Shown: positions 465-63,375 of the stretch, one piece after another
How the letters are laid out: every line of letters begins with the position of its first letter
Numbering within the stretch: position 1 is the stretch's first letter
Origin: a virus
Virus record (IMG/VR): IMGVR_UViG_3300032820_000001
Span: 32,001 to 96,000 of that record
Strand: one strand, 5' to 3'
DNA: 64,000 nt
Made by a program: the position numbers and the translations under genes
The notes under the pieces: model-generated
What the model saw: only the letters and a program-made list of their open reading frames with translations
What the model was told of the DNA's origin: nothing
Databases searched by the model: none

Positions 465-472
465 AAATACTC

Positions 473-6233: not shown

Positions 6234-6268
6234 TATAAATAGTGTGGGTCTTTGCAAAAACCCCTTTT
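6234..6268 (-). promoter_or_regulatory. bipartite late-promoter-like motif
   Basis: AAAAGGGGTTT-N13-CACTATTTATA; near-identical arrangement at 48506-48539. Confidence 0.6.
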
Positions 6269-7189: not shown

Positions 7190-7191
7190 TC

Positions 7192-8215: not shown

Positions 8216-8224
8216 AATTTCTCC

Positions 8225-8461
8225 TTAGTTGATTTCTGTCTTCTCTAATTCCCGCAGCATCATCCAATTCAAAACATCGAATGGACCGCCGTAGGTAACG
8301 ATAACTTCATACTCGCTATCTTTATATTTCTCGTTCAATTCCTCACAGGCAGCATCGGTTTCTTCGGCTCCCCGAAGGGTACGGCGCTCCTCGATCTTGA
8401 GCTTCGTGTTGTGTATCACCACAACTGAATTAAATTTTCTTTTCTTTTTCTCTCCCGTCAT
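8225..8461 (-). CDS. hypothetical protein
   Basis: 78-aa ORF coupled to the dnaE stop. Confidence 0.6.
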   Translation of the reverse strand: MTGEKKKRKFNSVVVIHNTKLKIEERRTLRGAEETDAACEELNEKYKDSEYEVIVTYGGPFDVLNWMMLRELEKTEIN

Positions 8462-39304: not shown

Positions 39305-40123
39305 TTAAAAGAAGTCTAAATCAGACTCGTCTAACATTGTTCTTTCGCGGGGGATTTTCACCTCAACAGCATTCTGTCTCTTCACAATAAATGGCTTCTC
39401 TTGGTTGGGGCCGGCGCCGACGAGATAACCCAAGACGCGGATGTCAATTTCACACTCATACATTCTCTCATCCTCTCCCATCTCCTCAACATTACTTGTA
39501 GATGTAAAATCAGATTCAATAAAAGCTTCGTACTTGTGGCCGTCTTTTATGACCGTGAAATAATTTATATTACCTGTCGCGGTCATAAATGGTTGTAATA
39601 AATCATTCATTTGCTGTTGGTACTCGGTTCGAACCTTAACAATATAGTTAGCGTTAACCGAAACTGGAAAAGGGATAGTGATGGTTTCATACACAATCTT
39701 TTTGTTCTTCCTTGGAAAATTTATCTGCCCGCGATCTTTGAGGGCGTCGGCGTTGGCAAAATTAGATGACTTATCTTGGTTGATTTGTCGAGTAATTTGA
39801 AATCCGCCGCCTTTTGCATCAGGGTCATTTGGAATGTTAGCCCATGCAACCCCTTTGCGCGTGGCATCTTTCTCAAACCCTGTTCGCTCTAGAGATAAGA
39901 GAGGAAGGATCAGGGCCCCTTCTTTGTCGCGCATTTCTTTGCTGCGCTTTGACTGATAAGCTCTCTCTGCGGAAACCCAAATAGTGGGGACTTTTTTATA
40001 CCCCCTGTTTGAAGTAACATGGAGATCCATCACTTCGTTTAGCCACTCGTACATCGCCAAGTCCATCGTTTCAATAGTTGATGGCTCAAAAGGTATTACA
40101 ATTTCTTCTTTATCTTCTGCCAT
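39305..40123 (-). CDS. tail terminator / completion protein (gp15-like)
   Basis: 272 aa between neck and sheath; ILPLLSLER, PVSVNANY..VRT. Confidence 0.6.
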   Translation of the reverse strand: MAEDKEEIVIPFEPSTIETMDLAMYEWLNEVMDLHVTSNRGYKKVPTIWVSAERAYQSKRSKEMRDKEGALILPLLSLERTGFEKDATRKGVAWANIPNDPDAKGGGFQITRQINQDKSSNFANADALKDRGQINFPRKNKKIVYETITIPFPVSVNANYIVKVRTEYQQQMNDLLQPFMTATGNINYFTVIKDGHKYEAFIESDFTSTSNVEEMGEDERMYECEIDIRVLGYLVGAGPNQEKPFIVKRQNAVEVKIPRERTMLDESDLDFF

Positions 40124-47363: not shown

Positions 47364-47388
47364 TTTTAGAATCTCCTTTGTAGTTAGA

Positions 47389-48618: not shown

Positions 48619-48645
48619 AAAAGCACCCTCCGAAGAGGGTGCTTT
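48619..48645 (-). terminator. intrinsic terminator after the giant fibre gene
   Basis: AAAGCACCCTC-TTCG-GAGGGTGCTTTT perfect stem. Confidence 0.85.
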
Positions 48646-48690: not shown

Positions 48691-51600
48691 TTAATTTCCA
48701 GGGTCACTAAATTCTCCAGATGCGGCATCCCATTCTAGAATTGTCTCAGTAGTGGGCGATGCTCCAAAAGGAGTAAATGTCGCCTCAACCGAGTAATCAT
48801 CACCATCTTTCACAAGTTGCAACGCAACAGTGTTGATGTTACCATTTAAGGTGTCTGCCTGAAATGTGTTTGATGTATCGTTCGTAATAGTGAGGGCTCT
48901 TAGGCTATTTCCGAGCTCTCCGGCCACCGCTGTGGACACCGATATCTCTGCAGTGAAGTCGTCCCACCCTGTAGATTTACAGTATTTGATAACCGTTGGT
49001 GGGACATTCGCAAAAAGACGGACACCAGAGGCAATGCCAGTAACATTCGTCCCGTTTGCGGCGGTGTTCATTTGGCCCGTGGTATAACCACCTGCTGAGT
49101 AGTCAATTGTTTGTCCAGTGCCGGTGCCGCCAGGGCCTCCGGTTATTGCGCCATAGAGAACATCATCATCAACGATGATGGTTAACTGGTCAACATATGC
49201 CTGATTAGCGCCGAAGAGATCGATCTGCATATCCAACCACTCATTTGGTATAAACGGATTGTTGGGATCGGCATCTGCGCCGTCGGTAACACCGTCTAAG
49301 TCGGTGTCGACGCAATCGGAGCCGGGAGCCAGACATAAGTATTCTTCTTCAGTATTAACAACAACAAGGGAGGTTACGTTCTCATCACCACCGGTGAAAT
49401 AATCTAATCTCAGCGGGGCGCCGGTGTTGGGTGCCGTGTAAACGACATGGCCAATAGTAAATTTATTATCAACCGGTGTTTCGGGGTTTGTGTTTACTGG
49501 GTAGAGCGAGTTCTCTGTGGTCACAGTTTCAGCAGGATCCAGCGGATTGTAAGAATCTAAATCCTGGCTATTGTTGTCGTCCATATACATGTGCTGGCCA
49601 CTGCTGTCATAGCCGTCGACAAAATAAAGAGATGTCGAGAGGCCGGTTGCTTCCTCGTTGTTATCATAGCGAAACACAAAAGATGATGCATCTGAGGCTG
49701 GTTTGTAGAGAAGTACATCTTCACGCACTGCAAAAACCGTTACTTCTAAACTGTGAATATTTCCAGATGGGTCTGGTGCTGACCAGCTCGTATTTAGCGG
49801 ATCAAGTATCGCACTTCTTTCCACGCCGGTATTTCCAATTTCAACCCTGAATGCATCAACTGACTCATGTATAGTAAGGTCTCCCTTCAGCCAATCAAAT
49901 GCGTCAGCACATTCTGGCTGAACAAGAAGAACCTGAGTATCGACCAGTGCATTGCTTGAATTTCCATACTGATTGTGCTGGGCGACATCAGCTGTTATTG
50001 CGCCGGGGTCGCCGTGGATATTTTCAAGGTGCGTCAATCGAACCCAGTAGCGACCATCAGGCATTCCTGCAGTATCTATAACAGCATTTTCACTTAAAGG
50101 CGTGAGTCCTTGCGTGGCTGAAGTATTATAAGAAACTTCAATAGCAACACCGTTACTATCAAGTTCGAGTCTATACAACTCAAAGGCTGCCCTCCAAGAA
50201 GCTGCCGTAAAAACTCCTGTGGTTGTCATTGAGGTAGGATCAATTACTAATTTGTTTCCAACAGTTGTGGCGATGAGGCCACTTGAATAACCTGTAGTAT
50301 AGGTATTATATTCAATTGTTTGGGCAGAGCCTGAAATCGTTATCGATTCTGCTGGAATAAGTGTAACCTCGCAGTGGACACCTGGATCTTCGGAATCTAA
50401 GTGTGGGTTTGGATTTTCGGCAGTGCCTACAGACATTTCGAGGTTATCTCCGTAACCATCGTTATCGGCGTCACTGTCTTCATTGGGATCGTTCGGGAAT
50501 GCATCATATGACCATGAAACACCATCGGAATCTGGATCGGCTTGGGCTTGATACTCAGCTTCAGTCTGGTGTATACAGACTTTTACGATTGGTTCCGAAA
50601 GTCCATTATAATCTGTGTCCCAAGGGGATCGTTGGAGATAATTGTGACTAGACTGAGCAACATTATTAACCGTATCATATAAAATTGCATATACCCTTAA
50701 TAAACCCCAACTTGAGCCGGCGCTGACGTTACTATTAAACATCTCTTGAGTGAGTTCAATTGTATCGTCGGGTCCTGCCATGTTATTGAGGTTCCATGGG
50801 TCGAGGGCATCAGTACCATCGGCACTATAATAGTTCCACCCGGTGGTGGTGTCGTGGTTCCTGAGCATGAACCGGGCTTCTAGGTTGGGAAGCGAAGTAC
50901 CATCCGGGGTTTTGAAGGATTGTGCTTGGCCCAAGTCACCGGAAAACTTCATGAAGTCTCCTACGACGGAAAGAATAGATTCCTCGCCGGTTAATTGATC
51001 GTTGGTAGAGCCCGGTCGGATGAAAGTGGAATCTGCGGGGATAATATCCCTCGTAATGCCAAGACCGTTATTAAAGACCCGGATGTGAGAATTGGTTGCA
51101 AATTCCATTTCTATGGATGAGCCGGCGGCAGCGATGGCGTCGCCTCCGGTAACTCCGTACTCCTGATCCGCGAGGGCCAGACCATTGTGAAAGGGAACAT
51201 TCGCCGCAGGTGAAACAAATATAAAAGCAAAAGGGCTTAATTCATCTCCAAAATACGCCACGTTAGATTGTTGGCCATATTGGTTAGTAACATAAGCTCT
51301 AATTTTCAAATAGCCACCTCCTCCGCCAGTGGGGTTTAGAGTCGCATCGGAGTACGCGACATTTTGGATGGCTCCATTTCCAGCATCGTTTTCTCCAATG
51401 TCTGGTATTTGGATAATACCTTCTTTGAATTTGCCGTTAATGGCGTCCCAAGTGGATGTGCCGGATGCCACGGTGATTGTGGCCATCGTGAGCTCAACAG
51501 TAAGTATTGATCCTACTCTGTTGGGTTCGTCGACCGTAACCTCTGATCCTACGAATTCAATCTGATCGCCGGGGGCAGCGATGAGAAGTCCCCATGGTTC

Positions 51601-54600
51601 TAGATGGTGGTATTTCTGAAAGCCTAGACCGGTTTCGGTGTTGACTATGGCCGATTGCAGTTCGGGGCCTGCGCCGGTCCACACGGGTGCCAGCGTCATA
51701 GTTGGCGCTGCGGGAAGTGCAGGGTTGCCATCGTCCGGATCGGGGGGGGTGCCGTCGGCAGCAATGCCGTCGCCGTCATCATCGATGGAGCCGTCAGGAT
51801 CGTTGGGTAAGGCATCTGCCTGCCACAAAACACCGTCGCCGTCTGGATCTGCATTTGCTGCCCATTCAGCTTCGTCGGCCGCCATCCAAAGGTGATTGAC
51901 GTTTGTTTTGGGTTGGGTAAATGACGAAATGATATCGCCGCCGTGATGGAGTAATTGGCCTGTGGATTCATCATGCACTTGATATGTAACGCGCATTGTG
52001 GAATCACCGATGTCAGAAAGCACTACAGTGTCGCCGTCCGAAAGGGGGTCTGTGGTGCCTGCGCCGGGGAGTTCGGTTTGCCAATTGCTCTTTGAAATTA
52101 TTAATCGGGTTTTAAGGTTAGTCAATACATTACCGTTAACATCCTTAAGTTCAACATCGGTATGATCAAAAGTTATCTCATCGTCGTAGACAGCAAAGAG
52201 ATATCCCGAAATCAGATTGTCGGTATTGTTGAGCCACGTTGCGCCCGTAGCGGCTGTCGTCCAAGTAATGGCCCCTGTGGGCTGCTCTCTAACCGCATCA
52301 TTGTCGTTGGGGTTAGTTATTGTGAACGAAGAGTTTGGCACAGGAGCATCGGGGTATGGACGATATTCGCCCGCAGATTGATACACATATGTTAAAGCAT
52401 CGGTAGAACCAACTATTCCAATTCTGAAGTCGTCGTTGCCGGCGCTTTCTGCACCGGTTGTTCCATTTGCATCGGTGCCGGCGAACTCTTCCCAATAGGC
52501 CAGAGTGGTGGTACTAATTCCGGAATTAGCATGAGTTACCACAAAATGAACTTGCAAGGATTCGGCACCTTCAAAATCACTTAAAGTGACGGGGGCAGCG
52601 ACGTCTAACGTAGGCTGAAGCCAGCCTGCGCTTTGCCAAGTGGTAGTGGCAGAAGCGAGTGTTGTAAGAGCATCCTCGGTTGATCTTAATTCAACGCTCA
52701 ACGTTGTGCCATCTACTTGACTTTCGGCATCAATTTCCAATAAGGAATCAAGATCGAACCGAATCTGATCAGCTCCCATTGCAAACAAGTAGGGGGTCTC
52801 GTAGCTATATATGGGCGTCGTTGTTGATATAATTGTATTTTTAGTTCTAGTAACATTACTAATTGCGTCAAAGCCCGGTAGATTTAGCAAAGTAAGTTGT
52901 GGTGTAGTTGTTTCACTAACCGCTGCAGCGTTATCTGCTGCAACTTGTGCCGCATCCTCAGCTATATCGTTTATCCTTATTCTAGATAAAGACCAGCCGC
53001 TGTAGAAACCAAGATCGCCTTGGGTCCAAGAGCCGTCTTCGTCAGCATATGCTGCAAACATCAAATCTCCAAAGGTTTTGGGCATCTGTGTCCAAGCGTG
53101 GGCACCGGCTCCTGGTACATCGGCGGTTGCAAGATCAATGAAATCGCCACTGTCCCAAACATGAAGGGCGCCGTTAATGTAGACGCGCATTTCCTCGCCA
53201 TCTCTGACGAGAGAAACGTGTGTCTTTTCGCCTGCTCTGATGGGGAATCCACTTTGGGGACCAGCTGCAGTGTTGTCAGTTCCGTATGGGAGGGGTATGT
53301 GTGAAAGATTGAGTGAATTATAAGTATGGTTATAAAATGAACCAATAGTATAATAATTTCCTACTTGCACACCACCTTCCATAAGGGGGCGACAAATATC
53401 ATCATCTTGATCGTCCTTAACCATTTGAGTCTGCACTGAGAAACCGCCGTTTTGGTAGAGAACTGCTTGGTTTCGCTTCGTTCCTATTATGTGCTTGGGC
53501 CTATTATAGCCGTTGCTGGCGAAAGTATTCTCTGGTATATCTAGTATAAAGGAAAGTGTAAATGGTCGCAATGCCATGGTTTTCATAATACTGGTATGTA
53601 ACGCTGCACCAGCGAACATGCTTGGTGATGTCCAAGATCCAGACAAATGAAGGGCAAGGGGATCTCCAACATAACTTATTTCGGCGCCGTCGTTGTCGTA
53701 GTTGTCGTTTACACTGTAGGCGGCAATCGTATCTGTGGTTAGAGGAATAATTGCCGGATAAGACAATCCCAAAGGAAGTCCTGGAATTGGATCGTTAATA
53801 ACAGATATGCCATCGGCGTCCCAATCGCCACTAACATAAGTGGCTAAAGAATCGTTTTTGGTGCTAATGGTGGCTAAAGTGACAACGGCTTGTTGTCCCG
53901 CAGCCAATTGTGCGTTATAGTGATCTTCCTGATCTGTACCAATTTGACTGGATGGGTTATTATCCCCAGTAATTAAATCAGCACAAATTGCAGCAACGTC
54001 TTGGGATTCTTGGAACGCCTGTGCAATAGCAGTTTCCGTATCGGTGATAATGGTTTGAGCAGCTGCCGTAAGATTACCGTCTGCGCCCACATCATAATGT
54101 GCTGCTGTGAGAGTTTCTTCCCACGTAGGGGATGTTACAGCAAGGAAGCTGTTATCTCGGAGGTTTTCTAGGGTGCTTACAGCATTAACCATGTTCTCGC
54201 CTTCGAGGGTGTAAGTCGCAGGTGCGCCGCTGCCAGGAACAAGGGTGGCGCCGGGGTAGACAGAGATGGGAGTGCCACCATCAACTACCAAATCCTTCCC
54301 GTCGTAATTAAGAACAAAGGTGGTTGGGACGTTGGCATCGGGGAATCCACCGGGCCCGATGTCTGCAAGATAAGAAGTTGGGTCTACAGGATTGGGAACT
54401 TGGTCATCCCTATGAATGAAAAGCTGTCCTCCATTATCTCCCCATGAGTCTGCCCAGTCAAGACTAATGTCTGTAAGGCCAGCAGAAATTGGGGGTGTGC
54501 TGGTAGTGGTTCCGTTTGGCGCTCCTGGTTGGGGCGCCATGTTTTCGTCCATGTAAAATCCGCCCTGGATCATAACCGTTGTGGTTGCATCTTGGATGAA

Positions 54601-57600
54601 AGATATTATTGGTTCGTTATAGTAAGTGTCAAAGAAAAATGTCCAGCGCAATGCGGGGCCGTCGAAGTATCCATCGCCGCCGGCGGTAAGCTGAACTGCT
54701 GTTTGTTCGCCCGGATCGAGATGAAAGTCATCAACTGGATCAAGAACGTTATCGGCATCGGTATCGGGGCTCATCAAATTGATGGTAATCACTTGAAGAG
54801 TTTCATTTCCGTCTGCGTCTACTACTTTAATTGTAAATGTATCGGCACCGGTGAATGCGCCTGCGGTTGCAGGAGTATAAATCCACTCTCCGTAGCGGAT
54901 GTCCGAAGAGCTTGGGTCCTGAGCTGTTATTACAGCTGTACCGTGTGAGCCCTGTGAAGAGATGCTGAAGGGGTTTGCTGCATCCATAAGATTGGCATCC
55001 ATGGCACGTATTTCAGAACTGTATACACCTTGTCCTGAATTATATTCAAAGACTCCGGCGGATACCCACTGTCCTGTGGGATCCATAAATGTGGTGGGAA
55101 CGTCAGATAATTCTTCGATGATTGCATGACCACCGTCGGTTTCAGCTATAAATTCATCAGACGGGACATAAAATACGTTCTGATCTCCGGCTCCGTCCGT
55201 AACAGTATATTGGGCTCGTAAAATTTTGCCCACCAAAGACGCAGCTATGGTAATGGGATCTTCGGGGCCCACGGAAATGGGGTCGTTAACATCGATGGTG
55301 GAGGTTGTCGGTGAACCAATATCAGTCCACGGTGTGGTTGGGTTTCCAAAGCCTGTGCCAGAAGTATTATCGGCAGGATCATTAGATTGCCACACCACGT
55401 CGATAACGGTGATTCCGGAGTTGTCCTCGATGGCGGCGGCAAATGTATTAACCGTCTGATCCACCATTGGTGGCGACATCATCTCTAAGTCGACTGCAAA
55501 TACCGTAGCATCTGGGTTGTCGTCATAAACGATTATCCCGTCAACGCCGCCGAAAACATCACCAACGCCTGCGCTGGATATGGTTCTTTTGATTACTAGA
55601 TTTCCCGTACCAGAATCAATCTCAACTGAGTATGTATCGGTAAGATATTCTTGAGGTCCTTGCGGGTTGGAATTCAGGCCCAACCACAGTGGGTTTCCGT
55701 AGTTATCGAAAAACGTCAATGTTTGGCCGCCGTCGTTAAAACTGTCCCCCATATTAAGTATGTGCGTATCTCCTTCAGAAATTGGAAGAGTACCCTGAAG
55801 GCTGGGGTTGCCGGTGGCCAATTCGCCAAGGCCATAGTTCACTGCCATATTGCCATTGATAATGACTTCGAAAGTACCTTCGGGGTCTCCGTAAGGTGTG
55901 CCGCCGTATTGATCTACCGAAAGAGAGTATACATAGGTAAAATCGGGCACAACTATGCTCCTAATTTCAGAATGTGCTCCACTAAGGCCGCTACTATCAA
56001 CCGTATATCTGATTATAACAGACAGCTGATCGTCAGCGGCCATGGCTGCAACAGTTGCGCCAGGAAGGGTATTTGTGGTTTGACCTCCGATGGTGGTGCC
56101 GTTGGCTAGCCACTCTATTGAAGTAATGGTAATGGCCTCAGACGCAATTGTAGTAGCGTCTGCAACGAGGTCATCGCTTGCACCAAAAAGAATAACTGCT
56201 GGAAGAAGTGCTCCAGATGTAACGCTAGTTTGTACATCCGGATCATTAACCGCATCGGTGCCGTCGAGATCATAATCGCCCGCTGGTTCAAGCCAGTCGG
56301 GGGTACCGTCGTTGTCTGCATCGGGCATCACTGCGTTGGCCCATGAACCGTTAGAATATGTCAAAATGGCTGTGCCATTGACGGAAAGAGTTGAGCCATC
56401 CCAGACAATCTGAATATCGTAAGGGCCCGTGGTGTAATCGGGTACAATGGAAAACACAATGGTGTCAGTGTCGGGGTTTTTGAAGTCAACGCTTGTAATG
56501 CCGCCGTCGCCAAAGGTGTCTAAGAGAGAAAGCGTTTGTGTGCCTTCCTGTGGTGTTATCACGCCATGGTCTGACATCAGAAGTGGGCTTTCCCAATTAT
56601 TTAACCCTCCGATAAGGCCGGTGGCGTTAAGAGCAATTTGCCATTCTGAAGTCCAATCGTCGCCGTTGAATACAATGGCGCCATAATCTGGTGATGCTTC
56701 AGATATCGCGTAGAACGGTGACATAAACCACTGTCCGCCTTCACAAAAGTAAAATTTCTCTGCCACTGAAAATGGGGCGAGAACGGGGTCACTGTCGTCA
56801 GCCGTAGTGAGATAAAAGACCTCTCCTTCGTGATCAGACATATCTGCTTTGAGTGCAGAGCCGTCTTTCAAGTGAGCTGGAACAGCGTCATAAAGTGGAA
56901 CAATAAATTTAGTTGATGTCATGTCTCCTGACATTTCAGCATTTTGACCTGCTGCAATAGAAAGAGTATCACTTCTCATACCGGCGGTTTTTGTAACGCC
57001 GTCGACTGCTTTATCGACAGCACCGAGCATAGCATCAAGCCTATTTTGGCGGCTTTGCAATTTCTGATCCAACATATCGTCGGCAGCATGCAAAGATGTG
57101 AGGCCAGTTAAACAATAGGTAGCCACGCCATAAGTAATTTCAAATGTAGAAGATGCACCAATAGATGCAGTTGCGTTAGAGATTTTGGCAGTTAAACCTG
57201 CTTCATGAGTATCTTCTGCGGTGGTATTATGGGCAATCAAAACTGCCTGCTGTGCAGCGATTGTATCGTCTGCAGGAGCTGCGCCACGGATTTCGGATTT
57301 CATGGTGTTTATTTTAGAAGTTAGGGTTCCACGCAAGTCTGGATCTGAGTCCATGGCTGTTTGGAGTGCCTCAAGTGTTTTCCAAGTGTCTTCAACGCCA
57401 GTGCCTTCTAGTCTCTGTGAGACTTGGTATGCCAAAGATCCTGATACGGTCTTGGCTCCTTGAATTCTTATAATGTCTGTATTGGAGTTTGAAAGTTGAG
57501 TGTCCAATTTCAAATCTGCGTCTTTCAGACTTGTAGCATTATCTGCATAATTTGTATCAGTTCGAGCTACATAATCGTGGCCTCGAAGTGAAGGGGTCGC

Positions 57601-57891
57601 GCCAGTGGCAGCGTCGGCTGCGGTTGCGATCCTAGTATTTTCTAAGTTGGTTTCGAGCGGACTGTGAGTCGCTGCAGAATCGACGGTTCGTTGTCTAATG
57701 GAACCGGATTTGCTTTCGAGTGTTGCAACAAGATCGTTGCCATCAACGCCCAAGACACCTATAGTGCCGGACATCGTAGATACAGCGTCAGCGGTGCCTA
57801 AGTTGGCGTCGCCGTCAGCTGTCATGGTGTGTTTCAGATCGTTGGCCAAGTCGCCAGATCCTGAAATGACTGCTATACCTTTTTTAGTCAT
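48691..57891 (-). CDS. giant fibre/adhesin-like virion protein (about 3,070 aa)
   Basis: N-terminal 400 aa paralogous to 58151-59809; DxDxDG Ca-binding repeats, cadherin-like and LamG-like segments. Confidence 0.75.
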   Translation of the reverse strand: MTKKGIAVISGSGDLANDLKHTMTADGDANLGTADAVSTMSGTIGVLGVDGNDLVATLESKSGSIRQRTVDSAATHSPLETNLENTRIATAADAATGATPSLRGHDYVARTDTNYADNATSLKDADLKLDTQLSNSNTDIIRIQGAKTVSGSLAYQVSQRLEGTGVEDTWKTLEALQTAMDSDPDLRGTLTSKINTMKSEIRGAAPADDTIAAQQAVLIAHNTTAEDTHEAGLTAKISNATASIGASSTFEITYGVATYCLTGLTSLHAADDMLDQKLQSRQNRLDAMLGAVDKAVDGVTKTAGMRSDTLSIAAGQNAEMSGDMTSTKFIVPLYDAVPAHLKDGSALKADMSDHEGEVFYLTTADDSDPVLAPFSVAEKFYFCEGGQWFMSPFYAISEASPDYGAIVFNGDDWTSEWQIALNATGLIGGLNNWESPLLMSDHGVITPQEGTQTLSLLDTFGDGGITSVDFKNPDTDTIVFSIVPDYTTGPYDIQIVWDGSTLSVNGTAILTYSNGSWANAVMPDADNDGTPDWLEPAGDYDLDGTDAVNDPDVQTSVTSGALLPAVILFGASDDLVADATTIASEAITITSIEWLANGTTIGGQTTNTLPGATVAAMAADDQLSVIIRYTVDSSGLSGAHSEIRSIVVPDFTYVYSLSVDQYGGTPYGDPEGTFEVIINGNMAVNYGLGELATGNPSLQGTLPISEGDTHILNMGDSFNDGGQTLTFFDNYGNPLWLGLNSNPQGPQEYLTDTYSVEIDSGTGNLVIKRTISSAGVGDVFGGVDGIIVYDDNPDATVFAVDLEMMSPPMVDQTVNTFAAAIEDNSGITVIDVVWQSNDPADNTSGTGFGNPTTPWTDIGSPTTSTIDVNDPISVGPEDPITIAASLVGKILRAQYTVTDGAGDQNVFYVPSDEFIAETDGGHAIIEELSDVPTTFMDPTGQWVSAGVFEYNSGQGVYSSEIRAMDANLMDAANPFSISSQGSHGTAVITAQDPSSSDIRYGEWIYTPATAGAFTGADTFTIKVVDADGNETLQVITINLMSPDTDADNVLDPVDDFHLDPGEQTAVQLTAGGDGYFDGPALRWTFFFDTYYNEPIISFIQDATTTVMIQGGFYMDENMAPQPGAPNGTTTSTPPISAGLTDISLDWADSWGDNGGQLFIHRDDQVPNPVDPTSYLADIGPGGFPDANVPTTFVLNYDGKDLVVDGGTPISVYPGATLVPGSGAPATYTLEGENMVNAVSTLENLRDNSFLAVTSPTWEETLTAAHYDVGADGNLTAAAQTIITDTETAIAQAFQESQDVAAICADLITGDNNPSSQIGTDQEDHYNAQLAAGQQAVVTLATISTKNDSLATYVSGDWDADGISVINDPIPGLPLGLSYPAIIPLTTDTIAAYSVNDNYDNDGAEISYVGDPLALHLSGSWTSPSMFAGAALHTSIMKTMALRPFTLSFILDIPENTFASNGYNRPKHIIGTKRNQAVLYQNGGFSVQTQMVKDDQDDDICRPLMEGGVQVGNYYTIGSFYNHTYNSLNLSHIPLPYGTDNTAAGPQSGFPIRAGEKTHVSLVRDGEEMRVYINGALHVWDSGDFIDLATADVPGAGAHAWTQMPKTFGDLMFAAYADEDGSWTQGDLGFYSGWSLSRIRINDIAEDAAQVAADNAAAVSETTTPQLTLLNLPGFDAISNVTRTKNTIISTTTPIYSYETPYLFAMGADQIRFDLDSLLEIDAESQVDGTTLSVELRSTEDALTTLASATTTWQSAGWLQPTLDVAAPVTLSDFEGAESLQVHFVVTHANSGISTTTLAYWEEFAGTDANGTTGAESAGNDDFRIGIVGSTDALTYVYQSAGEYRPYPDAPVPNSSFTITNPNDNDAVREQPTGAITWTTAATGATWLNNTDNLISGYLFAVYDDEITFDHTDVELKDVNGNVLTNLKTRLIISKSNWQTELPGAGTTDPLSDGDTVVLSDIGDSTMRVTYQVHDESTGQLLHHGGDIISSFTQPKTNVNHLWMAADEAEWAANADPDGDGVLWQADALPNDPDGSIDDDGDGIAADGTPPDPDDGNPALPAAPTMTLAPVWTGAGPELQSAIVNTETGLGFQKYHHLEPWGLLIAAPGDQIEFVGSEVTVDEPNRVGSILTVELTMATITVASGTSTWDAINGKFKEGIIQIPDIGENDAGNGAIQNVAYSDATLNPTGGGGGYLKIRAYVTNQYGQQSNVAYFGDELSPFAFIFVSPAANVPFHNGLALADQEYGVTGGDAIAAAGSSIEMEFATNSHIRVFNNGLGITRDIIPADSTFIRPGSTNDQLTGEESILSVVGDFMKFSGDLGQAQSFKTPDGTSLPNLEARFMLRNHDTTTGWNYYSADGTDALDPWNLNNMAGPDDTIELTQEMFNSNVSAGSSWGLLRVYAILYDTVNNVAQSSHNYLQRSPWDTDYNGLSEPIVKVCIHQTEAEYQAQADPDSDGVSWSYDAFPNDPNEDSDADNDGYGDNLEMSVGTAENPNPHLDSEDPGVHCEVTLIPAESITISGSAQTIEYNTYTTGYSSGLIATTVGNKLVIDPTSMTTTGVFTAASWRAAFELYRLELDSNGVAIEVSYNTSATQGLTPLSENAVIDTAGMPDGRYWVRLTHLENIHGDPGAITADVAQHNQYGNSSNALVDTQVLLVQPECADAFDWLKGDLTIHESVDAFRVEIGNTGVERSAILDPLNTSWSAPDPSGNIHSLEVTVFAVREDVLLYKPASDASSFVFRYDNNEEATGLSTSLYFVDGYDSSGQHMYMDDNNSQDLDSYNPLDPAETVTTENSLYPVNTNPETPVDNKFTIGHVVYTAPNTGAPLRLDYFTGGDENVTSLVVVNTEEEYLCLAPGSDCVDTDLDGVTDGADADPNNPFIPNEWLDMQIDLFGANQAYVDQLTIIVDDDVLYGAITGGPGGTGTGQTIDYSAGGYTTGQMNTAANGTNVTGIASGVRLFANVPPTVIKYCKSTGWDDFTAEISVSTAVAGELGNSLRALTITNDTSNTFQADTLNGNINTVALQLVKDGDDYSVEATFTPFGASPTTETILEWDAASGEFSDPGN

Positions 57892-57914
57892 ATTATATCC
57901 CTCCAAGGATTAAA
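57892..57914 (-). promoter_or_regulatory. conserved fibre-gene 5' leader (copy 1)
   Basis: TTTAATCCTTGGAGGGATATAAT directly before ATG; identical at 61024-61046. Confidence 0.8.
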
Positions 57915-57972
57915 AGTTAATTAACTTATCATGATCATATTTTGGACACAGAAGTGCCAAGAGTATCGTTGG

Positions 57973-57980
57973 TAAGTAGT
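57973..57980 (-). promoter_or_regulatory. late-promoter-like ACTACTTA
   Basis: intergenic copy upstream of the giant fibre gene. Confidence 0.55.
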
Positions 57981-58065
57981 TGATTTTCATTAGGAAACCT
58001 AAAGTATTTTCATATCCTTTGTTACCCGAAAATCAAGGCGGATCTAGATTTAGATCTCAAAAGAA

Positions 58066-58093
58066 AAAGCACCCCGCCTTGTGGGGGTGCTTT
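58066..58093 (-). terminator. intrinsic terminator after the 552-aa fibre gene
   Basis: AAAGCACCCC/GGGGTGCTTT stem followed by a T-run on the minus strand. Confidence 0.8.
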
Positions 58094-58150
58094 GTAATTG
58101 TTTGTTGTATCGTTCATCTTTATCTCAAAGAGATTAAGAGTTACAATTGT

Positions 58151-59809
58151 TTAGGAGTCGGTGAACTGCACCGTGACCACGTTAAAGGAATCATCTATAA
58201 ACTGAAATGTATAAACGTGTCCAGGTCCCTGATCCAACCCGATCTCCGCCAACTTCACCAATGTGGTGGTTCCTGCGGCGAGGGGATATGGTGCACCAGT
58301 GGGAGGTGGGCTGCCAAACCAAACATCACCGTAGCCGGCGTTCGTTGCAACCGCCACGCAATTGGCGCTACAGGTAATATCAATGCTGCCACCGTTGTCA
58401 ACAATTGAAGCTGCAAAGGCAATATCAGCTTCTATCGTTACATCAACAGTAGCGGTGGCCGTTTGGTTTTGGCTGTCTGTTGCTGTAAAAGTCACTGTTT
58501 GGTTTGCACCAACAGCCATAGTGCTGGCATTTGCGGGATCCGCAGTAACAGCAAGTGCGCCGTCTTCGATATCAGTTGCAGTTGCATTAGACGCGAAGTC
58601 ATAATTAGTATTCTCTGTTAGAGTGGTACTTACTCCTGCAGTGTTAATCGTTGGCAAGTTGTCATAAAAGAACGGTGATGCAAACCACTGAGAATCTTCG
58701 CGGAAATAAAATTTATTATTCGCTGGGAACTCTGTGGTGCTGTTGGCACTAAATTCAGCGGCAGAACATTCCAAATAGAACACTTCTCCCTCTTCTGGGC
58801 TGGCTTCAATATCGGCAATTGTCGATACTTTCGGCGTGAAGAATTTCTCACAGGAAGTGTCGCCCGACATTTCAGCGTTCTTGTTGGCTGCTACAGTGAG
58901 AGAGTCACTTCGCATGCCAGCTGCTTTAGAAGAGCCGTCGACAGTTTTAGCGGCTGCGCCAAGCATGGCGTCAAGTCTATTCTGTCGACTTTGCAATTTC
59001 TTATCCAACTCATCGTCGGCTGCATGCAAGCTCGCTTTACCGTTCAAATAATTTGTAGCTTCTGCATTACCATAATCAACAGCAAATGCACTACTTGCCC
59101 CAATGGAACTGGTAGCGTTGCTGAGTTTGGTAGTCAAACCTGCTTCATGAGTATTTTCTGCGGTGTTATTGTGGGCACTCAAAGTTATCTGTTGTGCAGC
59201 AATTGTATCATTAGGTGCCTGAGCGGTACCTCTAATTTCTGATTTCATTGCGGTGATCTTAGAAGTTAAGGTGCCTCGCAGATCTGTATCTGCATCCATG
59301 GCAGTCTTAAGTGCTTCAAGAGTTTTCCAAGTTTCTTCAACGCCAGTGCCTTCTAGTCTCTGTGAGACTTGATATGCAAGCGAACCAGAAGTGGTATTAC
59401 TACCATTGATACGATTGATATCGGCCTTTGAAGCGTCAAGTTGAGTGTCCAATTTCAAATCGGCATCAAGTAAGCTTGATGCACTATTTGCATAGTTGGT
59501 GTCAGCTCGTGCTACATAGTCGTGGCCATTATTGGCTCCGTCTACAGCACTCGCTGCGGTTGAAACTCGCACGTTTTCCAGGTTTGTTCCGAGTGGACTG
59601 TGAGTCGTTGCGGAATCGGTGGTTCGAGTTCGAACCGAGCCTGAAAGGGTTTCGAGTCTAGTTACGATGTCTCCAGCAGATCCTAATACAGTAACTGTAC
59701 CAGAAAGAGTGGAAATGGCATCAGCATGACCTAATTCGGCCACACCATCGTCCATAAGTTTGTGTTTCACGGCTGAAGAGCCTGAAACTACTGCTATACC
59801 TTTAGTCAT
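58151..59809 (-). CDS. fibre paralog with C-terminal Ig-like domain
   Basis: MTKGIAV start, ADxxLD coiled-coil motifs, aromatic module, then ATATDIEDG...TVTFTATDSQNQTATATVDVTI. Confidence 0.75.
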   Translation of the reverse strand: MTKGIAVVSGSSAVKHKLMDDGVAELGHADAISTLSGTVTVLGSAGDIVTRLETLSGSVRTRTTDSATTHSPLGTNLENVRVSTAASAVDGANNGHDYVARADTNYANSASSLLDADLKLDTQLDASKADINRINGSNTTSGSLAYQVSQRLEGTGVEETWKTLEALKTAMDADTDLRGTLTSKITAMKSEIRGTAQAPNDTIAAQQITLSAHNNTAENTHEAGLTTKLSNATSSIGASSAFAVDYGNAEATNYLNGKASLHAADDELDKKLQSRQNRLDAMLGAAAKTVDGSSKAAGMRSDSLTVAANKNAEMSGDTSCEKFFTPKVSTIADIEASPEEGEVFYLECSAAEFSANSTTEFPANNKFYFREDSQWFASPFFYDNLPTINTAGVSTTLTENTNYDFASNATATDIEDGALAVTADPANASTMAVGANQTVTFTATDSQNQTATATVDVTIEADIAFAASIVDNGGSIDITCSANCVAVATNAGYGDVWFGSPPPTGAPYPLAAGTTTLVKLAEIGLDQGPGHVYTFQFIDDSFNVVTVQFTDS

Positions 59810-59835
59810 AGTTTATTTTCTCCTTCTAATAGTTA

Positions 59836-61023
59836 TTATGATTCTGGTTCGAATCTGAACATGGATGGATGCCATTCGCCATCTTCACACATGTAAAGTT
59901 TATCGTCTTGTTTAAATGAAGTTGCACCATCACCGTCGGTGATAAATACAAACTTGCCATTGTGGGCTTGTCGCGCTGCGTTTGTCGCTGGATCGAGTCC
60001 TGCGTTAACCGCTGCAGTCGAGCTCATGTTGGGGAGCGAAAAGCGACCACTATTTGCGGTGAATCTCACAGTTCCCAAATCTGCAGTGCTACTAACCGTA
60101 AGCTTTCCAGCGAGGGTCATTGCACCACCAGTGGTGCCGTTACCTTCGAGGGCCGTAAGAGACAAATCTCTTTGGTAAATAGCTTCGTCCAAGTCCTTAT
60201 CGGCTTGAACCATGGTTCCAGCTGCAGTGATGTAGTTTTCAGTAGCGTAAGCATCAGGAGTATTTGTGCCATCGGCAGCGAGGCCGAGGTTAGTAAACGT
60301 GGTGCTCAATTCGCCAACTAACAAACCGTTTTCGGTGTTATAGCGAGAAATTTCACTTTCAAGAGCGCCAGACAAATAGCCAAGAGTGGCTGTGGCACCT
60401 TCGAGGTTGGCGATAAATGTCGCCTTTGAAGACGAAATGTGATTCTCGATTGCAGTCACCACGGTTGTGGCGGGTGCGTCGTCAAGACTATCGCCTGCGT
60501 TTCTCAGGGAGTCTTGAATGCCTTCAATGGTATCAAGTGCTCCTGCGGGGTTGGTGAAGTTAGCACCGGTTGCGCCGGCTCCAAAAACAACTTCTGCAAT
60601 TTGTCGCTTGATTGAGTGTGCGCCAGTGTTGGCATCCATTACATCAATTCTGTCTTGTTCGGTTTTTGCCAAAGCATCAATTGCTTTATCTGCGGCAGAG
60701 AATTCTGCTGCAGCGCCGTCGCCGCTTAAGGCAACATAAGTTCCAGCACCGGTGGTGCCCATAAGAACTTCTGCTGCATCTAATTTTTGCTGAATATCAG
60801 CAATTGTGTTTGAGTCTAGGGTTGCTTCTGTCCCAAGGTCGGTGTCGACTTGGGTGAGAGTTGCGGCTACGTCAGTAACAGCTGCGCCATCTTTGGCGAT
60901 TGAAACAACGCCATCGAGGTTGACCTGCTTTGAAGAGCCTGCAAGACCTAAGTTAAATTCGCCCTCGTTGTCGAGCTTGTGTACCTCTGCGGTACCACTG
61001 CGAACTACTATACCTTTTTTCAT
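59836..61023 (-). CDS. fibre paralog ending at the aromatic module
   Basis: MKKGIVV start, ADxxLD motifs, C-terminal KLYMCEDGEWHPSMF. Confidence 0.75.
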   Translation of the reverse strand: MKKGIVVRSGTAEVHKLDNEGEFNLGLAGSSKQVNLDGVVSIAKDGAAVTDVAATLTQVDTDLGTEATLDSNTIADIQQKLDAAEVLMGTTGAGTYVALSGDGAAAEFSAADKAIDALAKTEQDRIDVMDANTGAHSIKRQIAEVVFGAGATGANFTNPAGALDTIEGIQDSLRNAGDSLDDAPATTVVTAIENHISSSKATFIANLEGATATLGYLSGALESEISRYNTENGLLVGELSTTFTNLGLAADGTNTPDAYATENYITAAGTMVQADKDLDEAIYQRDLSLTALEGNGTTGGAMTLAGKLTVSSTADLGTVRFTANSGRFSLPNMSSTAAVNAGLDPATNAARQAHNGKFVFITDGDGATSFKQDDKLYMCEDGEWHPSMFRFEPES

Positions 61024-61046
61024 ATTATATCCCTCCAAGGATTAAA
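61024..61046 (-). promoter_or_regulatory. conserved fibre-gene 5' leader (copy 2)
   Basis: identical 23 nt to 57892-57914. Confidence 0.8.
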
Positions 61047-61065
61047 GTGTTTTTATTAATTTCGA

Positions 61066-62331
61066 TTATGCATCATCCTTCAATAAGTGAGATGAGTGCC
61101 AGATTCCATTTTCACAAAAGTAAAGTACTGAACCTTCGGTAAATGGGGTTGCGCTCATGTCGGTAGCTGCGGCGTTGTTGAGGCAGAATACCTTTCCATT
61201 ATTGGAAGTATCACCATCTCGCATAGTCGCGTCATCAATTGCTTCTTGTCCAGTCATAACTGGGAAGTTAAAAGTTGAAGTGCTCATCATTTTCAGGTGT
61301 CCGCTAATGTCGGAAGTTCCGCTAATAGTGAGAGTGTTACATGCAAGCAAGTCAGAACTTAAAGCTGCTATGTCAGTTTCCAAAGTCTTGGTTGCGTCGT
61401 CAAACTTCTTATCTCTTGCGATCATTGAAGTTGCGCCAGTTGTATAATTACCTTCGGTCATGGCCGACATGGTTCCGTCAGCGGCCGTTCCAGCGCATGA
61501 GGCGCCTTGGGTGCTGTCGATATCGTCACGCAAAGCTTTTTGCGATCCACCCACAGGGCGAGCCGCGCTTGTCAGATCTGTCGTTCCTGCACGTCGGTTT
61601 TTCTCGGCTTCGATTTCTGTTTCGAGAGTGTTCAAGTTTTCGTCTGCAGTGCCGACATCACCGTCGATTTCTTCGAGTGCGGATGCAACGTCAGAAAGAA
61701 CGGTTCCGGAAAAGTCAGTGTCGTCAGCGATGCTGGCCTGAATTTCTGGAAGAGTGTCGAAAGCGTCACCGGGACTAGCAACAACATCAGCAATTGCTTT
61801 TTTGATGGAGCCAGCGTTGGATGCGTGTTCCAAAATGCCTAGTTCGGCTCTTTGTCTTACGATTTCAGCAACAAGTGCTTCGTCCACTGCTTTAAGAGTG
61901 GTTGCGTCTTTGACGCCTTGAATGTTTGCACTGGTTGTGTTCAGTGTGGGGTTAACCCCAACGATGCCAGAAGTGGCATTGTTTGTGGCTGCGCCGGTGC
62001 CCGCTGTCAAGCCGGCTGCAACGATCAAATCGTTAACCTTGCCGTCAAGAAGGTCTCTACGACCATCAGCATCTGATTCTTCTTTATCAAGAGAACCTTT
62101 TATACCATTGATGACTTTAGCTAAGTCATTTGAATTGGCGCCGTCGGCTGCCATGATGGTGCCATAAGTGCCGTCCGCTTTGACTTTAATGTCAAGGTTT
62201 TCGACTTGTACGGTACCATTAAGTGTTACGGCTGATGTGCCGCCGCCTCCGACTTTAGCGTCACCATTATCCACAAGCTTGTGAACGGTGGCGCCAGTGG
62301 AAGCATTTAATACTGCTATACCTTTTGCCAT
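61066..62331 (-). CDS. fibre paralog ending at the aromatic module
   Basis: MAKGIAV start, coiled coil, C-terminal VLYFCENGIWHSSHL. Confidence 0.75.
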   Translation of the reverse strand: MAKGIAVLNASTGATVHKLVDNGDAKVGGGGTSAVTLNGTVQVENLDIKVKADGTYGTIMAADGANSNDLAKVINGIKGSLDKEESDADGRRDLLDGKVNDLIVAAGLTAGTGAATNNATSGIVGVNPTLNTTSANIQGVKDATTLKAVDEALVAEIVRQRAELGILEHASNAGSIKKAIADVVASPGDAFDTLPEIQASIADDTDFSGTVLSDVASALEEIDGDVGTADENLNTLETEIEAEKNRRAGTTDLTSAARPVGGSQKALRDDIDSTQGASCAGTAADGTMSAMTEGNYTTGATSMIARDKKFDDATKTLETDIAALSSDLLACNTLTISGTSDISGHLKMMSTSTFNFPVMTGQEAIDDATMRDGDTSNNGKVFCLNNAAATDMSATPFTEGSVLYFCENGIWHSSHLLKDDA

Positions 62332-62534: not shown

Positions 62535-62559
62535 AAAAAAAGCACCCTGCTGGGTGCTT
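62535..62559 (-). terminator. intrinsic terminator after the small paralog pair
   Basis: AAGCACCC-AGCA-GGGTGCTT followed by TTTTT. Confidence 0.8.
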
Positions 62560-62563
62560 CCTT

Positions 62564-62989
62564 TTAGGGGGCGTTTATACCCGAACCGCTGAGAACGTAT
62601 TCATCCTCAATCTCGGTAAGGGCTGCTATAATTTCGTAATCCCTCGCAACAATGCCGGAGTTTCTTATATAGAGTCGGCGGCACCTAACATTAAGGGTTA
62701 ATGGTGCGTTGAGATCATCCGACGATGGTGTGAAATCTAAATAGTTTCCATCTGGCAGTGGTGTGCCCCATGGAGCAGCAGGGAAGCCTCCCAAGTCAAA
62801 TGATATCTGCATGCGGCCAATTTTGTTAATAGTAACAGAGCTAGCTACATGAGGGAACTCAATCTCCAAAAAAGTGGGGTCTGCTGCAGATCCGGCATCC
62901 ACGCTGCCAGTTACTATGAAGGGCCTGCCAGAGTTTGTATATTGTGTGGCATCGTCGATTCCCGGCTTATAAGAATAATAATTGCTCAT
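62564..62989 (-). CDS. small beta-rich protein, paralog A
   Basis: MSNYYSYKPGI, SGRP, IEFP, NVRCRRLYI, DEY.L.GSGI. Confidence 0.8.
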   Translation of the reverse strand: MSNYYSYKPGIDDATQYTNSGRPFIVTGSVDAGSAADPTFLEIEFPHVASSVTINKIGRMQISFDLGGFPAAPWGTPLPDGNYLDFTPSSDDLNAPLTLNVRCRRLYIRNSGIVARDYEIIAALTEIEDEYVLSGSGINAP

Positions 62990-62997
62990 GTTTTCCC

Positions 62998-63375
62998 CTA
63001 TGGCCCTGTAATTCCAGAGCCAGTAAGAATGTACTCATCGGTAATACCAGTCAGCTCACCCAAAGTTTGTATAGTGGTGGCATTGCCTGTGGCGGTTTCT
63101 ATATAAATCCTTCTACACTTGACATTAAAAATTCGAGGCTCTGAGGCTGCTTCGATGGTTATTTTGTTTGCAGCTGGTGCTGCAGCGTTGAAATAAAGTA
63201 AAATATCCTCATTGGTGCTCAGGATAGTGAACGACTTTGTTACACGGGGGAACTCAATCGGCTCTACGTGTCCCGAAGATGCAGGTGTTGTAACAATTTG
63301 GAACCATGGGCGCCCAGACATATAATACTGACCTGCCTCACCTATGCCCGGTTTATAACTATAATAATTACTCAT
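62998..63375 (-). CDS. small beta-rich protein, paralog B
   Basis: MSNYYSYKPGI, SGRP, IEFP, NVKCRRIYI, DEY.L.GSGI. Confidence 0.8.
   Translation of the reverse strand: MSNYYSYKPGIGEAGQYYMSGRPWFQIVTTPASSGHVEPIEFPRVTKSFTILSTNEDILLYFNAAAPAANKITIEAASEPRIFNVKCRRIYIETATGNATTIQTLGELTGITDEYILTGSGITGP

What the first reader, a model, noticed from the sequence alone, without database searches (positions are those of the whole stretch)
48691..62331. Array of four paralogous fibre genes on a common chassis with different distal payloads
Seen: all four start M[ATK]K?KGI[AV]V, have a helical shaft with repeated ADxxLD-like motifs and reach the shared aromatic module. Two stop there (395 and 421 aa), one adds about 170 aa with an Ig-like domain, and one adds about 2,650 aa. 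They lie upstream of the scaffold/capsid genes, far from the baseplate genes. Inference: a family of head or collar appendages sharing one attachment site, giving a multi-ligand or mixed display. This is the best candidate here for an undescribed system.
Basis: partly seen in the sequence, partly recalled or inferred. Interest (0 to 1): 0.82.

Follow-up and report, generated by a model that had tools for sequence, protein, structure and literature searches.

The report
Paralogous neck-fibre gene cassette in marine phage
An uncultured 191-kb marine T4-like phage carries four sister genes for virion fibres that share the same two end-pieces but carry different tips, one 3,066 residues long. They most likely hang from the phage neck as a fast-changing set of adhesive whiskers, a new version of a known phage strategy.

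Summary
Four tandem minus-strand genes (A 421, B 395, C 552, D 3066 aa) share three parts: a ~45-aa N-terminal beta "cap", a helical shaft and a ~55-aa aromatic C-terminal module. C adds ~167 aa and D ~2,670 aa after the module.

No Pfam, PHROG, PDB or cultured-phage relative was found. The family is confined to a subclade of an abundant uncultured marine phage group.

In relatives the slot between prohead protease and scaffold/capsid genes holds 1-4 members of 134 to over 1,800 aa. Orthologues are 36-44% identical where flanking genes are 73-88%.

The module's last hairpin resembles the T4 fibritin foldon at profile level. The cap does not resemble fibritin's N-domain.

The only other structural gene that tracks the family is the gp14-like neck protein. 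It carries the same module in 7 of 7 family-bearing genomes and in 0 of 17 without, but that amounts to about two evolutionary events. In one relative a slot fibre is homologous to the fibre fused to gp14 here.

Best reading: fibritin-like neck fibres with swappable adhesin tips. Fibre identity is firm (~0.9); neck anchorage is inferred (~0.55).

The scan has noted this same stretch in other readings, and ordinary fibritin variants in other genomes, but not this family on other DNA. I rate it a new variant of a known kind.

The parts
61066..62331 (-). Gene A, 421 aa: cap + helical shaft + terminal aromatic module
   Evidence: ORF and translation; cap and module HMM hits
59836..61023 (-). Gene B, 395 aa: cap + shaft + terminal module. 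This is the protein that was folded.
   Evidence: AlphaFold2 model, mean pLDDT 71: beta cap 5-49, four main helices, module 331-390 at pLDDT 76-92
58151..59809 (-). Gene C, 552 aa: chassis 63% identical to that of D, plus a ~167-aa payload (about 58151-58654) with a weak Ig-like signal
   Evidence: Big_9/HYR below threshold
48691..57891 (-). Gene D, 3066 aa: chassis (residues 1-400) plus a ~2,670-aa payload (48691-56691). The payload has one Big_9 Ig domain near residues 966-1038, a weak LamG-like signal near 1541-1576, and Asp-rich DxDxDG-type linkers near 524-555, 2015-2060, 2452-2500 and 2862-2880.
   Evidence: Payload residues 477-1662 are 50% identical to part of a 3663-aa relative, P0009
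62182..62331 (-). N-terminal cap of A (first 50 codons). The equivalents are 60874-61023 (B), 59660-59809 (C) and 57742-57891 (D).
   Evidence: Cap alignment and HMM; predicted beta strands
59851..60006 (-). Aromatic C-terminal module of B. The equivalents are 61075-61251 (A), 58661-58831 (C) and 56707-56880 (D). The final hairpin is foldon-like.
   Evidence: Module HMM. hhalign against T4-type foldons: Prob 71%, P 3.7e-5, 0 of 100 column shuffles reach the score
62334..62356 (-). Shared 23-nt leader with GGAGGG Shine-Dalgarno in front of A. The same leader lies at 61025-61047 (B, one mismatch) and 57893-57915 (D).
   Evidence: these are the only three copies in the genome at up to 4 mismatches
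62535..62564 (-). Intrinsic terminator before the A-B-C unit. Sister terminators at 58066-58093 (after C) and 48620-48645 (after D) delimit two transcription units, [A-B-C] and [D].
40123..44268 (-). gp14-like neck protein, 1381 aa. It has two tandem ring domains plus a fibre that ends in two copies of the same aromatic module (about 40408-40524 and 40162-40287). It is the inferred anchoring partner or sister fibre.
   Evidence: Module hits at residues 1249-1287 and 1328-1369; two copies of the immuto/Mel-JY01 gp14-like domain
62564..63375 (-). Two small genes (141 and 125 aa) directly upstream. They diverge as fast as the fibres (34-43% identity to the L003 orthologues), so they are possible accessory or assembly factors. 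Function unknown.
   Evidence: no family hit

Best explanation

Shown:
- Each protein has a conserved ~45-aa N-terminal beta cap, a segmented alpha-helical shaft of variable length, and a ~55-aa aromatic module whose last beta-hairpin is foldon-like.
- An optional payload follows the module: none in A and B, ~167 aa that is weakly Ig-like in C, and ~2,670 aa of adhesin-like beta domains with Asp-rich linkers in D.
- The genes form two late-type transcription units, each with a terminator and a shared leader.
- The units sit in a hypervariable slot between the prohead protease genes and the scaffold/capsid genes.

Inferred:
- The module nucleates trimerisation, as the fibritin foldon does.
- The cap is the common docking piece.
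- The fibres are mounted on the neck through the C-terminal extension of the gp14-like head-closure protein. This would give a collar of mixed whiskers whose different tips bind different surface ligands or help position other fibres, as T4 fibritin does.
- Rapid turnover of shaft and payload, and gain or loss of array members by recombination between the repeated cassettes, retunes what the virion sticks to.
For: Paralogy and uniqueness of cap and module.

Architecture: AlphaFold2 model of B. The long shafts of relatives show a strong 3.6-residue hydrophobic periodicity and 18-residue repeats.

Foldon likeness:
- The module profile against an alignment of seven T4-type fibritin C-termini gives Prob 71%, P 3.7e-5 and score 25. 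Column shuffles give 7.4 +/- 2.0, maximum 17.2, and 0 of 100 reach the real score.
- The whole-chassis profile aligns to T4 Wac only at its last 45 residues.

The same plan is published for fibritins (PMC3797505): a conserved 50-aa N-domain, a segmented coiled coil, and a C-terminal part that may be one foldon, two foldons, 1-3 Ig domains or more than 900 aa.

Hypervariable slot:
- Related IMG/VR contigs carry 1-4 members of 134 to 1,878 aa in the same place.
- Orthologues in L003 are 36-44% identical while neighbouring genes are 73-88%. By region: cap 56-78%, shaft 29-40%, module 42-51%.

Link to the neck:
- gp14-like carries the module in 7 of 7 genomes with the family and in 0 of 17 without.
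- Capsid protein, gp13-like, gp15, portal (one lone substitution), scaffold and protease show no family-specific indels or discriminating columns.
- Cultured relatives immuto and Mel-JY01 lack both the family and the module.
- In contig L056 the slot encodes a fibre of at least 3,209 aa that is 34-46% identical (E 4e-57) to the fibre fused to gp14 in this phage. This is a gene-fusion ('Rosetta stone') link.
Against: - No virion data exist. No cultured phage carries the family.
- The cap shows no similarity to the fibritin N-domain (Prob 0.15%).
- Pfam Fibritin_C is not hit. Foldon-like hairpins are common in phage tail fibres generally, so they indicate a trimeric fibre and not a neck location.
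- The genes are not next to gp13 as wac is in T4. Scaffold and capsid genes lie between.
- The co-occurrence with the gp14 module needs only about two changes on the capsid-protein tree, and a single origin is not excluded. It is therefore weak as independent evidence.
- Heptad periodicity in B's helices is not significant.
- Fold searches gave nothing significant.
- A trimerising module on a ring protein with no fibre (the 263-271-aa gp14 forms), and module-only ORFs of 80-95 aa, are not explained by the foldon reading.
Confidence: 0.55

Rival explanations
1. Capsid head fibres. The cap docks on capsomers (as phi29 gp8.5 does at quasi-threefold sites, or Hoc at hexamer centres). Many sites per head would then display a mixture of the four fibres.
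For: The genes lie inside the head-morphogenesis block, between protease and scaffold/capsid genes. phi29 gene 8.5 also sits in the head block (my own knowledge). Mini forms with only cap + module (112-146 aa: L010, P0102, P0110, P0122) look like decoration proteins. An Atlas feature search listed a cluster in which 23% of members carry Phage_head_fibr, at score 0.86, which is a lead only.
Against: No Pfam hit to Phage_head_fibr or Hoc. The capsid protein has no indel or diagnostic residue that tracks the family, whereas gp14 does. The module and a fibre type are shared with the neck protein.
Confidence: 0.2
2. Tail or baseplate side fibres (ordinary receptor-binding fibres) that merely happen to be encoded in the head block.
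For: Shaft segments and slot neighbours hit generic 'tail fiber' PHROGs and tail-fibre proteins of other phages. The payloads are adhesin-like. Sets of receptor-binding proteins on a shared N-terminal anchor are typical of baseplates (my own knowledge: CBA120, G7C).
Against: The cap occurs on no other protein of the genome. The payload of D shares nothing with other proteins of the genome. Earlier scan notes place the baseplate block, with its own giant fibre candidates, 25-45 kb away; I did not check that. The family's presence co-varies with the neck protein gp14; baseplate genes lay outside the fetched loci and were not compared.
Confidence: 0.1
3. Plug-and-socket chain. The cap docks onto the aromatic module. 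The gp14 extension would be the root socket. Cap+module proteins would be extendable links, joined end to end as the T4 long tail fibre is. Cap-only proteins (184-188 aa in the distant clade) would be chain-ending tips.
For: Cap and module travel together. Pure cap+module minis exist, as do cap-only proteins and module-only ORFs next to gp14. Both the gp14 module and the family appear or disappear together.
Against: There is no direct evidence of a cap-module contact. The single-chain model of the mini protein was poor (pLDDT 59). Payloads placed after the module in C and D would have to leave the socket accessible.
Confidence: 0.15

Closest known systems
T4 fibritin (gpWac) and its variants: T4 type, JS98 two-foldon type, RB43 Ig-tipped type, Aeh1 long type (PMC3797505; PMC12929629)
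   Same: Both are fibres of ~400-500 aa with a conserved ~50-aa N-terminal piece, an alpha-helical shaft interrupted by loops and a foldon-like C-terminal hairpin. The distal part is variable and may be Ig-like or very long. Both are encoded in the late structural region near the neck genes. The doubled module at the end of the gp14 fibre recalls the two-foldon JS98 type.
   Different: The N-terminal cap is not homologous to the Wac N-domain. There are four paralogues instead of one gene. They lie between protease and scaffold genes, not before gp13. The module is longer (~55 aa, with an extra strand and short helices) and can be internal, followed by up to ~3,300 aa. The correlated partner is gp14, whereas Wac binds gp13 domain III. 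Turnover between close relatives is fast, whereas fibritin C-domains are reported as stable within lineages.
Other collar/whisker systems: XM1 gp40, Bas63/Sf14 collar + whisker, GP4 rope/Fiber-1 (PMC12609058)
   Same: These are neck-mounted accessory fibres built from dedicated genes. In Bas63 and GP4 an extension of a collar protein carries several fibre subunits, which is comparable to a gp14 C-terminal extension serving as the mount.
   Different: No sequence or fold match was found. Those systems use Ig-like collar rings and whisker dimers, and they have no paralogous array with different payloads.
Multi-tailspike or multi-fibre sets on a shared N-terminal anchor (e.g. CBA120 TSP1-4, G7C, PhiK64-1; from my own knowledge, not tested here)
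   Same: Several paralogous receptor-binding proteins share an attachment piece and differ in their distal domains. Content varies between relatives.
   Different: Those sets are baseplate-attached, mostly enzymatic tailspikes. Here the chassis is helical, the genes lie in the head/neck block, and the payloads are non-enzymatic as far as Pfam can tell.
phi29 head fibre gp8.5 (Pfam PF11133)
   Same: A trimeric helical fibre encoded within the head gene block, and dispensable as a decoration.
   Different: No Pfam match, and no capsid-protein feature tracks the family.

Membership tests
T4 fibritin (gpWac) | Conserved ~50-aa N-terminal neck-binding domain homologous to that of Wac | tested here: not met
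   hhalign of the cap alignment against T4 Wac residues 1-90: Prob 0.15%, 8 columns. The cap HMM does not hit the Wac N-terminus.
T4 fibritin (gpWac) | Segmented parallel alpha-helical coiled-coil shaft | tested here: inconclusive
   The AlphaFold2 model shows four main helices separated by loops. Heptad contrast is not significant in single helices (p 0.04-0.23). The long shafts of relatives show strong 3.6-residue periodicity. Oligomeric state was not tested.
T4 fibritin (gpWac) | C-terminal foldon (Pfam PF07921 Fibritin_C) | tested here: inconclusive
   Profile-profile match to seven T4-type foldons: Prob 71%, P 3.7e-5, 0 of 100 column shuffles as high. No Pfam hit even at E 10. The motif also occurs in many tail fibres, so it is not specific to fibritin.
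T4 fibritin (gpWac) | Gene directly upstream of neck gene 13 (order 12-wac-13-14 in T4) | tested here: not met
   The array is separated from the gp13-like gene by the scaffold and capsid genes.
T4 fibritin (gpWac) | Twelve trimers bound to gp13 on the virion | not testable with these tools
   No multimer modelling was available and no cultured relative exists. gp13-like shows no family-specific feature.
phi29-type head fibre (PF11133) | Sequence membership in Phage_head_fibr | tested here: not met
   No Pfam hit for A-D; only a weak Atlas lead.
Paralogous receptor-binding protein sets on a common anchor | Paralogues share the N-terminal piece and differ distally, with content varying among relatives | tested here: met
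Paralogous receptor-binding protein sets on a common anchor | Anchor binds a baseplate adaptor | not tested
   The baseplate genes lie outside the window. The cap is absent from all other proteins of the genome.

The most novel reading that the evidence does not exclude
Cap and module may be a matched plug and socket. The gp14 neck ring would offer module sockets. Cap+module fibres would plug in and offer a new socket in turn. Cap-only proteins would terminate the chain. From a small, quickly reshuffled gene cassette the phage could then assemble branched or concatenated neck fibres of programmable length and tip. Such a combinatorial, end-to-end fibre construction kit at the neck has not been described.
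Probability: 0.15. Interest if true: 0.8.

Novelty: new variant of a known kind. Interest (0 to 1): 0.55.

Why it matters
The phage belongs to a large group of uncultured marine T4-like phages: more than 524 IMG/VR contigs carry a related capsid gene.

In one subclade, the most variable genes of the head/neck block are these fibres. That points to a second host- or particle-binding organ besides the baseplate.

If the fibres sit on the neck, they extend the fibritin idea from one sensor whisker to a mixed, fast-evolving set that includes a 3,066-residue adhesin-like member. The gp14 head-closure protein would then act as a fibre mount.

The family has no Pfam or PHROG model. A profile for the cap and the module would therefore annotate dozens of currently 'hypothetical' proteins in ocean viromes.

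Tried and rejected
- Pfam and PHROGs on A-D and neighbours: nothing for the chassis.
- PDB sequence searches with D and with the family profile: only coiled-coil noise.
- tblastn of B and of a distant member against 50,697 phage genomes: no family member, only shaft-repeat hits.
- Foldseek of the B model against the PDB and BFVD: no hit with E < 0.1. The weak rows were trimerisation domains.
- The first fold (134-aa mini protein) was too poor to use (pLDDT 59).
- Huge-phage contig LR756508 and RM378: no cap or module.
- Search for a family-specific domain in the capsid protein, gp13, gp15, portal, scaffold, protease and the 132-aa protein: none, apart from one lone portal substitution.
- Similarity of the D payload to other proteins of the genome: none.
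- Heptad test: not significant.
- A wider locus search with the 34-sequence alignment failed because no stretch was conserved enough.
- The N-terminus of the L056 giant could not be fetched. The stored stretch starts about 15 codons into the gene.
I redid it from locus references.

Readings rejected:
- Internal head or scaffold cargo: no capsid-targeting leader, and the architecture is that of a fibre.
- Chance motif: HMM E-values and uniqueness in the genome rule it out.
Full report
**Setting.** The window is bases 32001-96000 of a single 191,133-bp contig. All genes in the region run on the minus strand.
- The capsid protein (45669-47426, 585 aa) is a gp23-family protein (Pfam Gp23, E 4e-70).
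- Its nearest relatives among deposited phage genomes are an uncultured 484-kb phage, Flavobacterium phage immuto, Microcystis phage Mel-JY01 and Rhodothermus phage RM378, at 42-51% identity.
- This is therefore a distant T4-like myophage.
- In the direction of transcription the order is TerL, portal, 271 aa, 178 aa, prohead protease, 92, 265, 132, 125 and 141 aa, then A, B, C and D. These are followed by a 359-aa putative scaffold, the capsid protein, gp13-like (422 aa), gp14-like (1381 aa), gp15, sheath, tube and a gp48/54-type baseplate protein.

**Observation.**
- The four genes are A 62331-61066 (421 aa), B 61023-59836 (395 aa), C 59809-58151 (552 aa) and D 57891-48691 (3066 aa).
- They align over their first ~400 residues. 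C and D are 63% identical there. The other pairs are 23-25% identical, with BLASTP E from 9e-10 to 7e-5; for B-D BLASTP aligned only the 40-residue module.
- Three parts are common: a ~45-aa cap, a shaft and a ~55-aa aromatic module. The cap consensus is M.KKGIAV.SGS..vHKL.DDG.a.lG...l.G.v.v. The module consensus is NGk.FYL...F...K.YFCEdG.W..S.F.
- In the whole genome the cap occurs only on these four proteins. The module occurs on them and twice at the C-terminus of the gp14-like protein.
- A, B and D are preceded by the same 23-nt leader with a GGAGGG ribosome-binding site, the only three copies in the genome.
- Three sister terminators (62535-62564, 58066-58093, 48620-48645) delimit two units, [A-B-C] and [D].
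Only the Ig-like label for C rests on sub-threshold hits.

**Structure.**
- AlphaFold2 on B with a 34-sequence alignment gave mean pLDDT 71.
- The model has short beta strands in residues 5-49 and helices at 52-87, 108-130, 185-245 and 271-293, separated by loops.
- Residues 294-330 are a low-confidence linker.
- The module (331-390, pLDDT 76-92) is confident and ends in a hairpin at 375-380/383-390.
- Foldseek found nothing significant. The weak rows were trimerisation domains of fibrous proteins, including a foldon fusion and the collagen XVIII trimerisation domain.
- Long relatives have shafts made of 18-residue repeats with a strong 3.6-residue hydrophobic period.
- For the short helices of B the heptad test is not significant.
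- The helical nature is therefore shown by the model, and the coiled-coil trimer is inferred.

**Payloads.**
- After the module D carries ~2,670 residues.
- These include one Big_9 Ig domain above the Pfam threshold (28.5 bits, near residue 1000), a weak LamG-like signal, and several Asp-rich DxDxDG-type linkers.
- The rest matches nothing in Pfam, PHROGs or the PDB.
- About 1,200 residues of the payload are 50% identical to part of a 3,663-aa relative.
- This composition is that of a long adhesin-like fibre.

**Distribution.**
- A profile search of 1.84 billion representative proteins gave 400 hits. Most are proteins that share only shaft repeats.
- Of the best 150, 38 carry both cap and module.
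- In about 28 of these the module is terminal. In others it is followed by 78 to 3,278 residues.
- Mini forms of 112-146 aa consist of cap and module alone.
- No cultured phage has the family.

**Comparative genomics.**
- Fourteen IMG/VR loci found with the family profile all place members in the same slot, between the protease block and the scaffold/capsid genes.
- Content differs between loci:

| Locus | Family members in the slot (aa) |
|---|---|
| L003 | 428, 396, 514 |
| L006 | 220, 719, 748, 1878, plus a collagen-like protein |
| L011 | 705, 662, 588 |
| L010 | 134, 319 |
| L015 | 870 |
| More distant lineage | one member of 520-1,090 plus a 184-188-aa protein with the cap but a different C-terminus |

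- Against L003, A, B and C are 36-44% identical while the large flanking structural genes are 73-88% identical.
- Within the orthologues the cap (56-78%) and module (42-51%) are better kept than the shaft (29-40%) and payload (24%).
- The two small upstream genes (141 and 125 aa) diverge just as fast.
- C and D share an exact 38-bp tract. Together with the repeated leader and terminator cassettes, this offers substrates for recombination.

**Where do the fibres sit?**
- A second locus set, found with the capsid protein, shows the group is large: more than 524 related contigs. Most members lack the family.
- I scored the loci where both the slot and a complete gp14 are visible.
- The family is present in 7 of 7 genomes whose gp14-like protein carries the aromatic module. 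That module sits either at the end of a ~100-aa extension (263-271-aa forms) or at the end of a fused fibre.
- The family is present in 0 of 17 genomes whose gp14-like protein is the short 162-172-aa form.
- Two further contigs with the module on gp14 (L056, L067) have large fibre genes in the slot, but the locus ends cut them.
- Capsid protein, gp13-like, gp15, portal, scaffold, protease and the 132-aa protein show no family-specific indels. The only diagnostic residue among them is a single portal substitution.
- On a capsid-protein tree the family-bearing genomes form three lineages inside one clade. Only about two changes are needed, so the correlation is not many independent events.
- In L056 the slot encodes a fibre of at least 3,209 aa. 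It is 34-46% identical, over several hundred residues (E 4e-57), to the fibre that is fused to gp14 in this phage.
- The same fibre type is thus either free in the slot or covalently part of the neck protein. This is a classical fusion argument for physical association.
- Taken together, these points make the neck the most likely mount.

**Relation to fibritin.**
- Published work describes T4-type fibritins as having a conserved 50-aa N-domain that binds the neck and a segmented triple coiled coil (PMC3797505).
- Their C-terminal part may be one foldon, two foldons, one to three Ig domains, or a fibre of more than 900 aa.
- In T4, twelve trimers bind gp13 domain III (PMC12929629).
- I built an alignment of seven T4-type foldons from deposited phages.
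- The module profile matches it at Prob 71% and P 3.7e-5, with a score of 25. Column shuffles gave 7.4 +/- 2.0.
- The chassis profile aligns to Wac only at its extreme C-terminus, and the cap does not match the Wac N-domain.
- Pfam Fibritin_C is not hit. Earlier notes of this scan say that foldon-like units are common in tail fibres, which limits what the motif proves.
- The family works like fibritin, but it fails two of the defining tests for membership: the N-domain and the gene position.

**Open points.**
- Why a ring protein without a fibre (gp14 of 263-271 aa) ends in the module is unexplained.
- So is why an 80-95-aa ORF that is essentially one module follows it.
- A plug-and-socket reading, in which the cap docks on the module, would explain these forms, the minis and the cap-only proteins. 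I give it about 15%.

**Verdict.**
- This is a real, unannotated and fast-evolving fibre family.
- It is most likely a multi-paralogue, fibritin-like neck-fibre cassette with swappable adhesin tips.
- Fibre identity has confidence about 0.9; neck mounting about 0.55.
- I rate it a new variant of a known kind.

Noticed in passing
L004:8264-8815, L005:10940-11494, L007:10966-11532, L009:10398-10964, L012:10311-10865, L013:10299-10865: In the more distant lineage a 184-188-aa protein follows the long fibre. It has the same N-terminal cap but no module. Residues ~20-60 resemble a repeat found twice inside the gp14-fused fibre of this phage (residues 789-848 and 948-1007) and weakly resemble tail-spike PHROGs. 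It ends in a GDWIVTS...GHG domain of unknown kind.
   Followed up: partly
L013:15455-16258 and 16259-16501 (also L005, L009, L012): In the distant lineage the gp14-like protein is 263-267 aa and ends in the aromatic module. It is followed by an 80-95-aa ORF that is little more than one module. In this phage the two modules sit at the end of one 1381-aa gp14-fibre fusion.
   Followed up: partly
L108 + L056 (IMGVR_UViG_3300024261_000026), joined frame 2-9631: The slot gene encodes at least 3,209 aa, cut at its 5' end by the stored stretch. It is built of repeats homologous to the gp14-fused fibre of this phage. Its first visible residues (F.FLEDG....G) look like the middle of a cap.
   Followed up: partly
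L003:12543-14087: The orthologue of C ends in a run of about 30 glycines followed by GGGD repeats, where C has its payload domain.
   Followed up: no
window 57389-57426 and 59334-59371: There is an exact 38-bp identity between C and D inside a chassis that is 57-79% identical at DNA level over its first ~1 kb. This is a likely gene-conversion or crossover tract.
   Followed up: partly
window 62564-63375: The 141-aa and 125-aa genes upstream of A have no family match. They are only 34-43% identical to their L003 counterparts, as divergent as the fibres, so they may be fibre assembly or adaptor factors.
   Followed up: no
L005:7922-10801, L013:6908-10189: The shafts of the long relatives consist of dozens of 18-residue repeats (S.EES.R..AD.SL...L), giving hydrophobic periods of 3.6 and 4.5 residues.
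   Followed up: partly
genome 168668-168895 (+), outside the window: A 75-aa frame gives a weak module-like hit (E 1e-4). I did not examine it.
   Followed up: no
L055, L059, L081, L102 (slot between protease and scaffold): Some relatives without the family still hold other large genes (575-904 aa) in the same slot. The slot seems to be a general landing place for accessory structural genes.
   Followed up: no
P0008 (representative library): An unrelated 3,071-aa protein with an apparent hydrophobic, signal-peptide-like N-terminus (judged by eye, not predicted) matches the shaft part of the profile in 33 stretches. The shaft repeat type is therefore not confined to this family.
   Followed up: no
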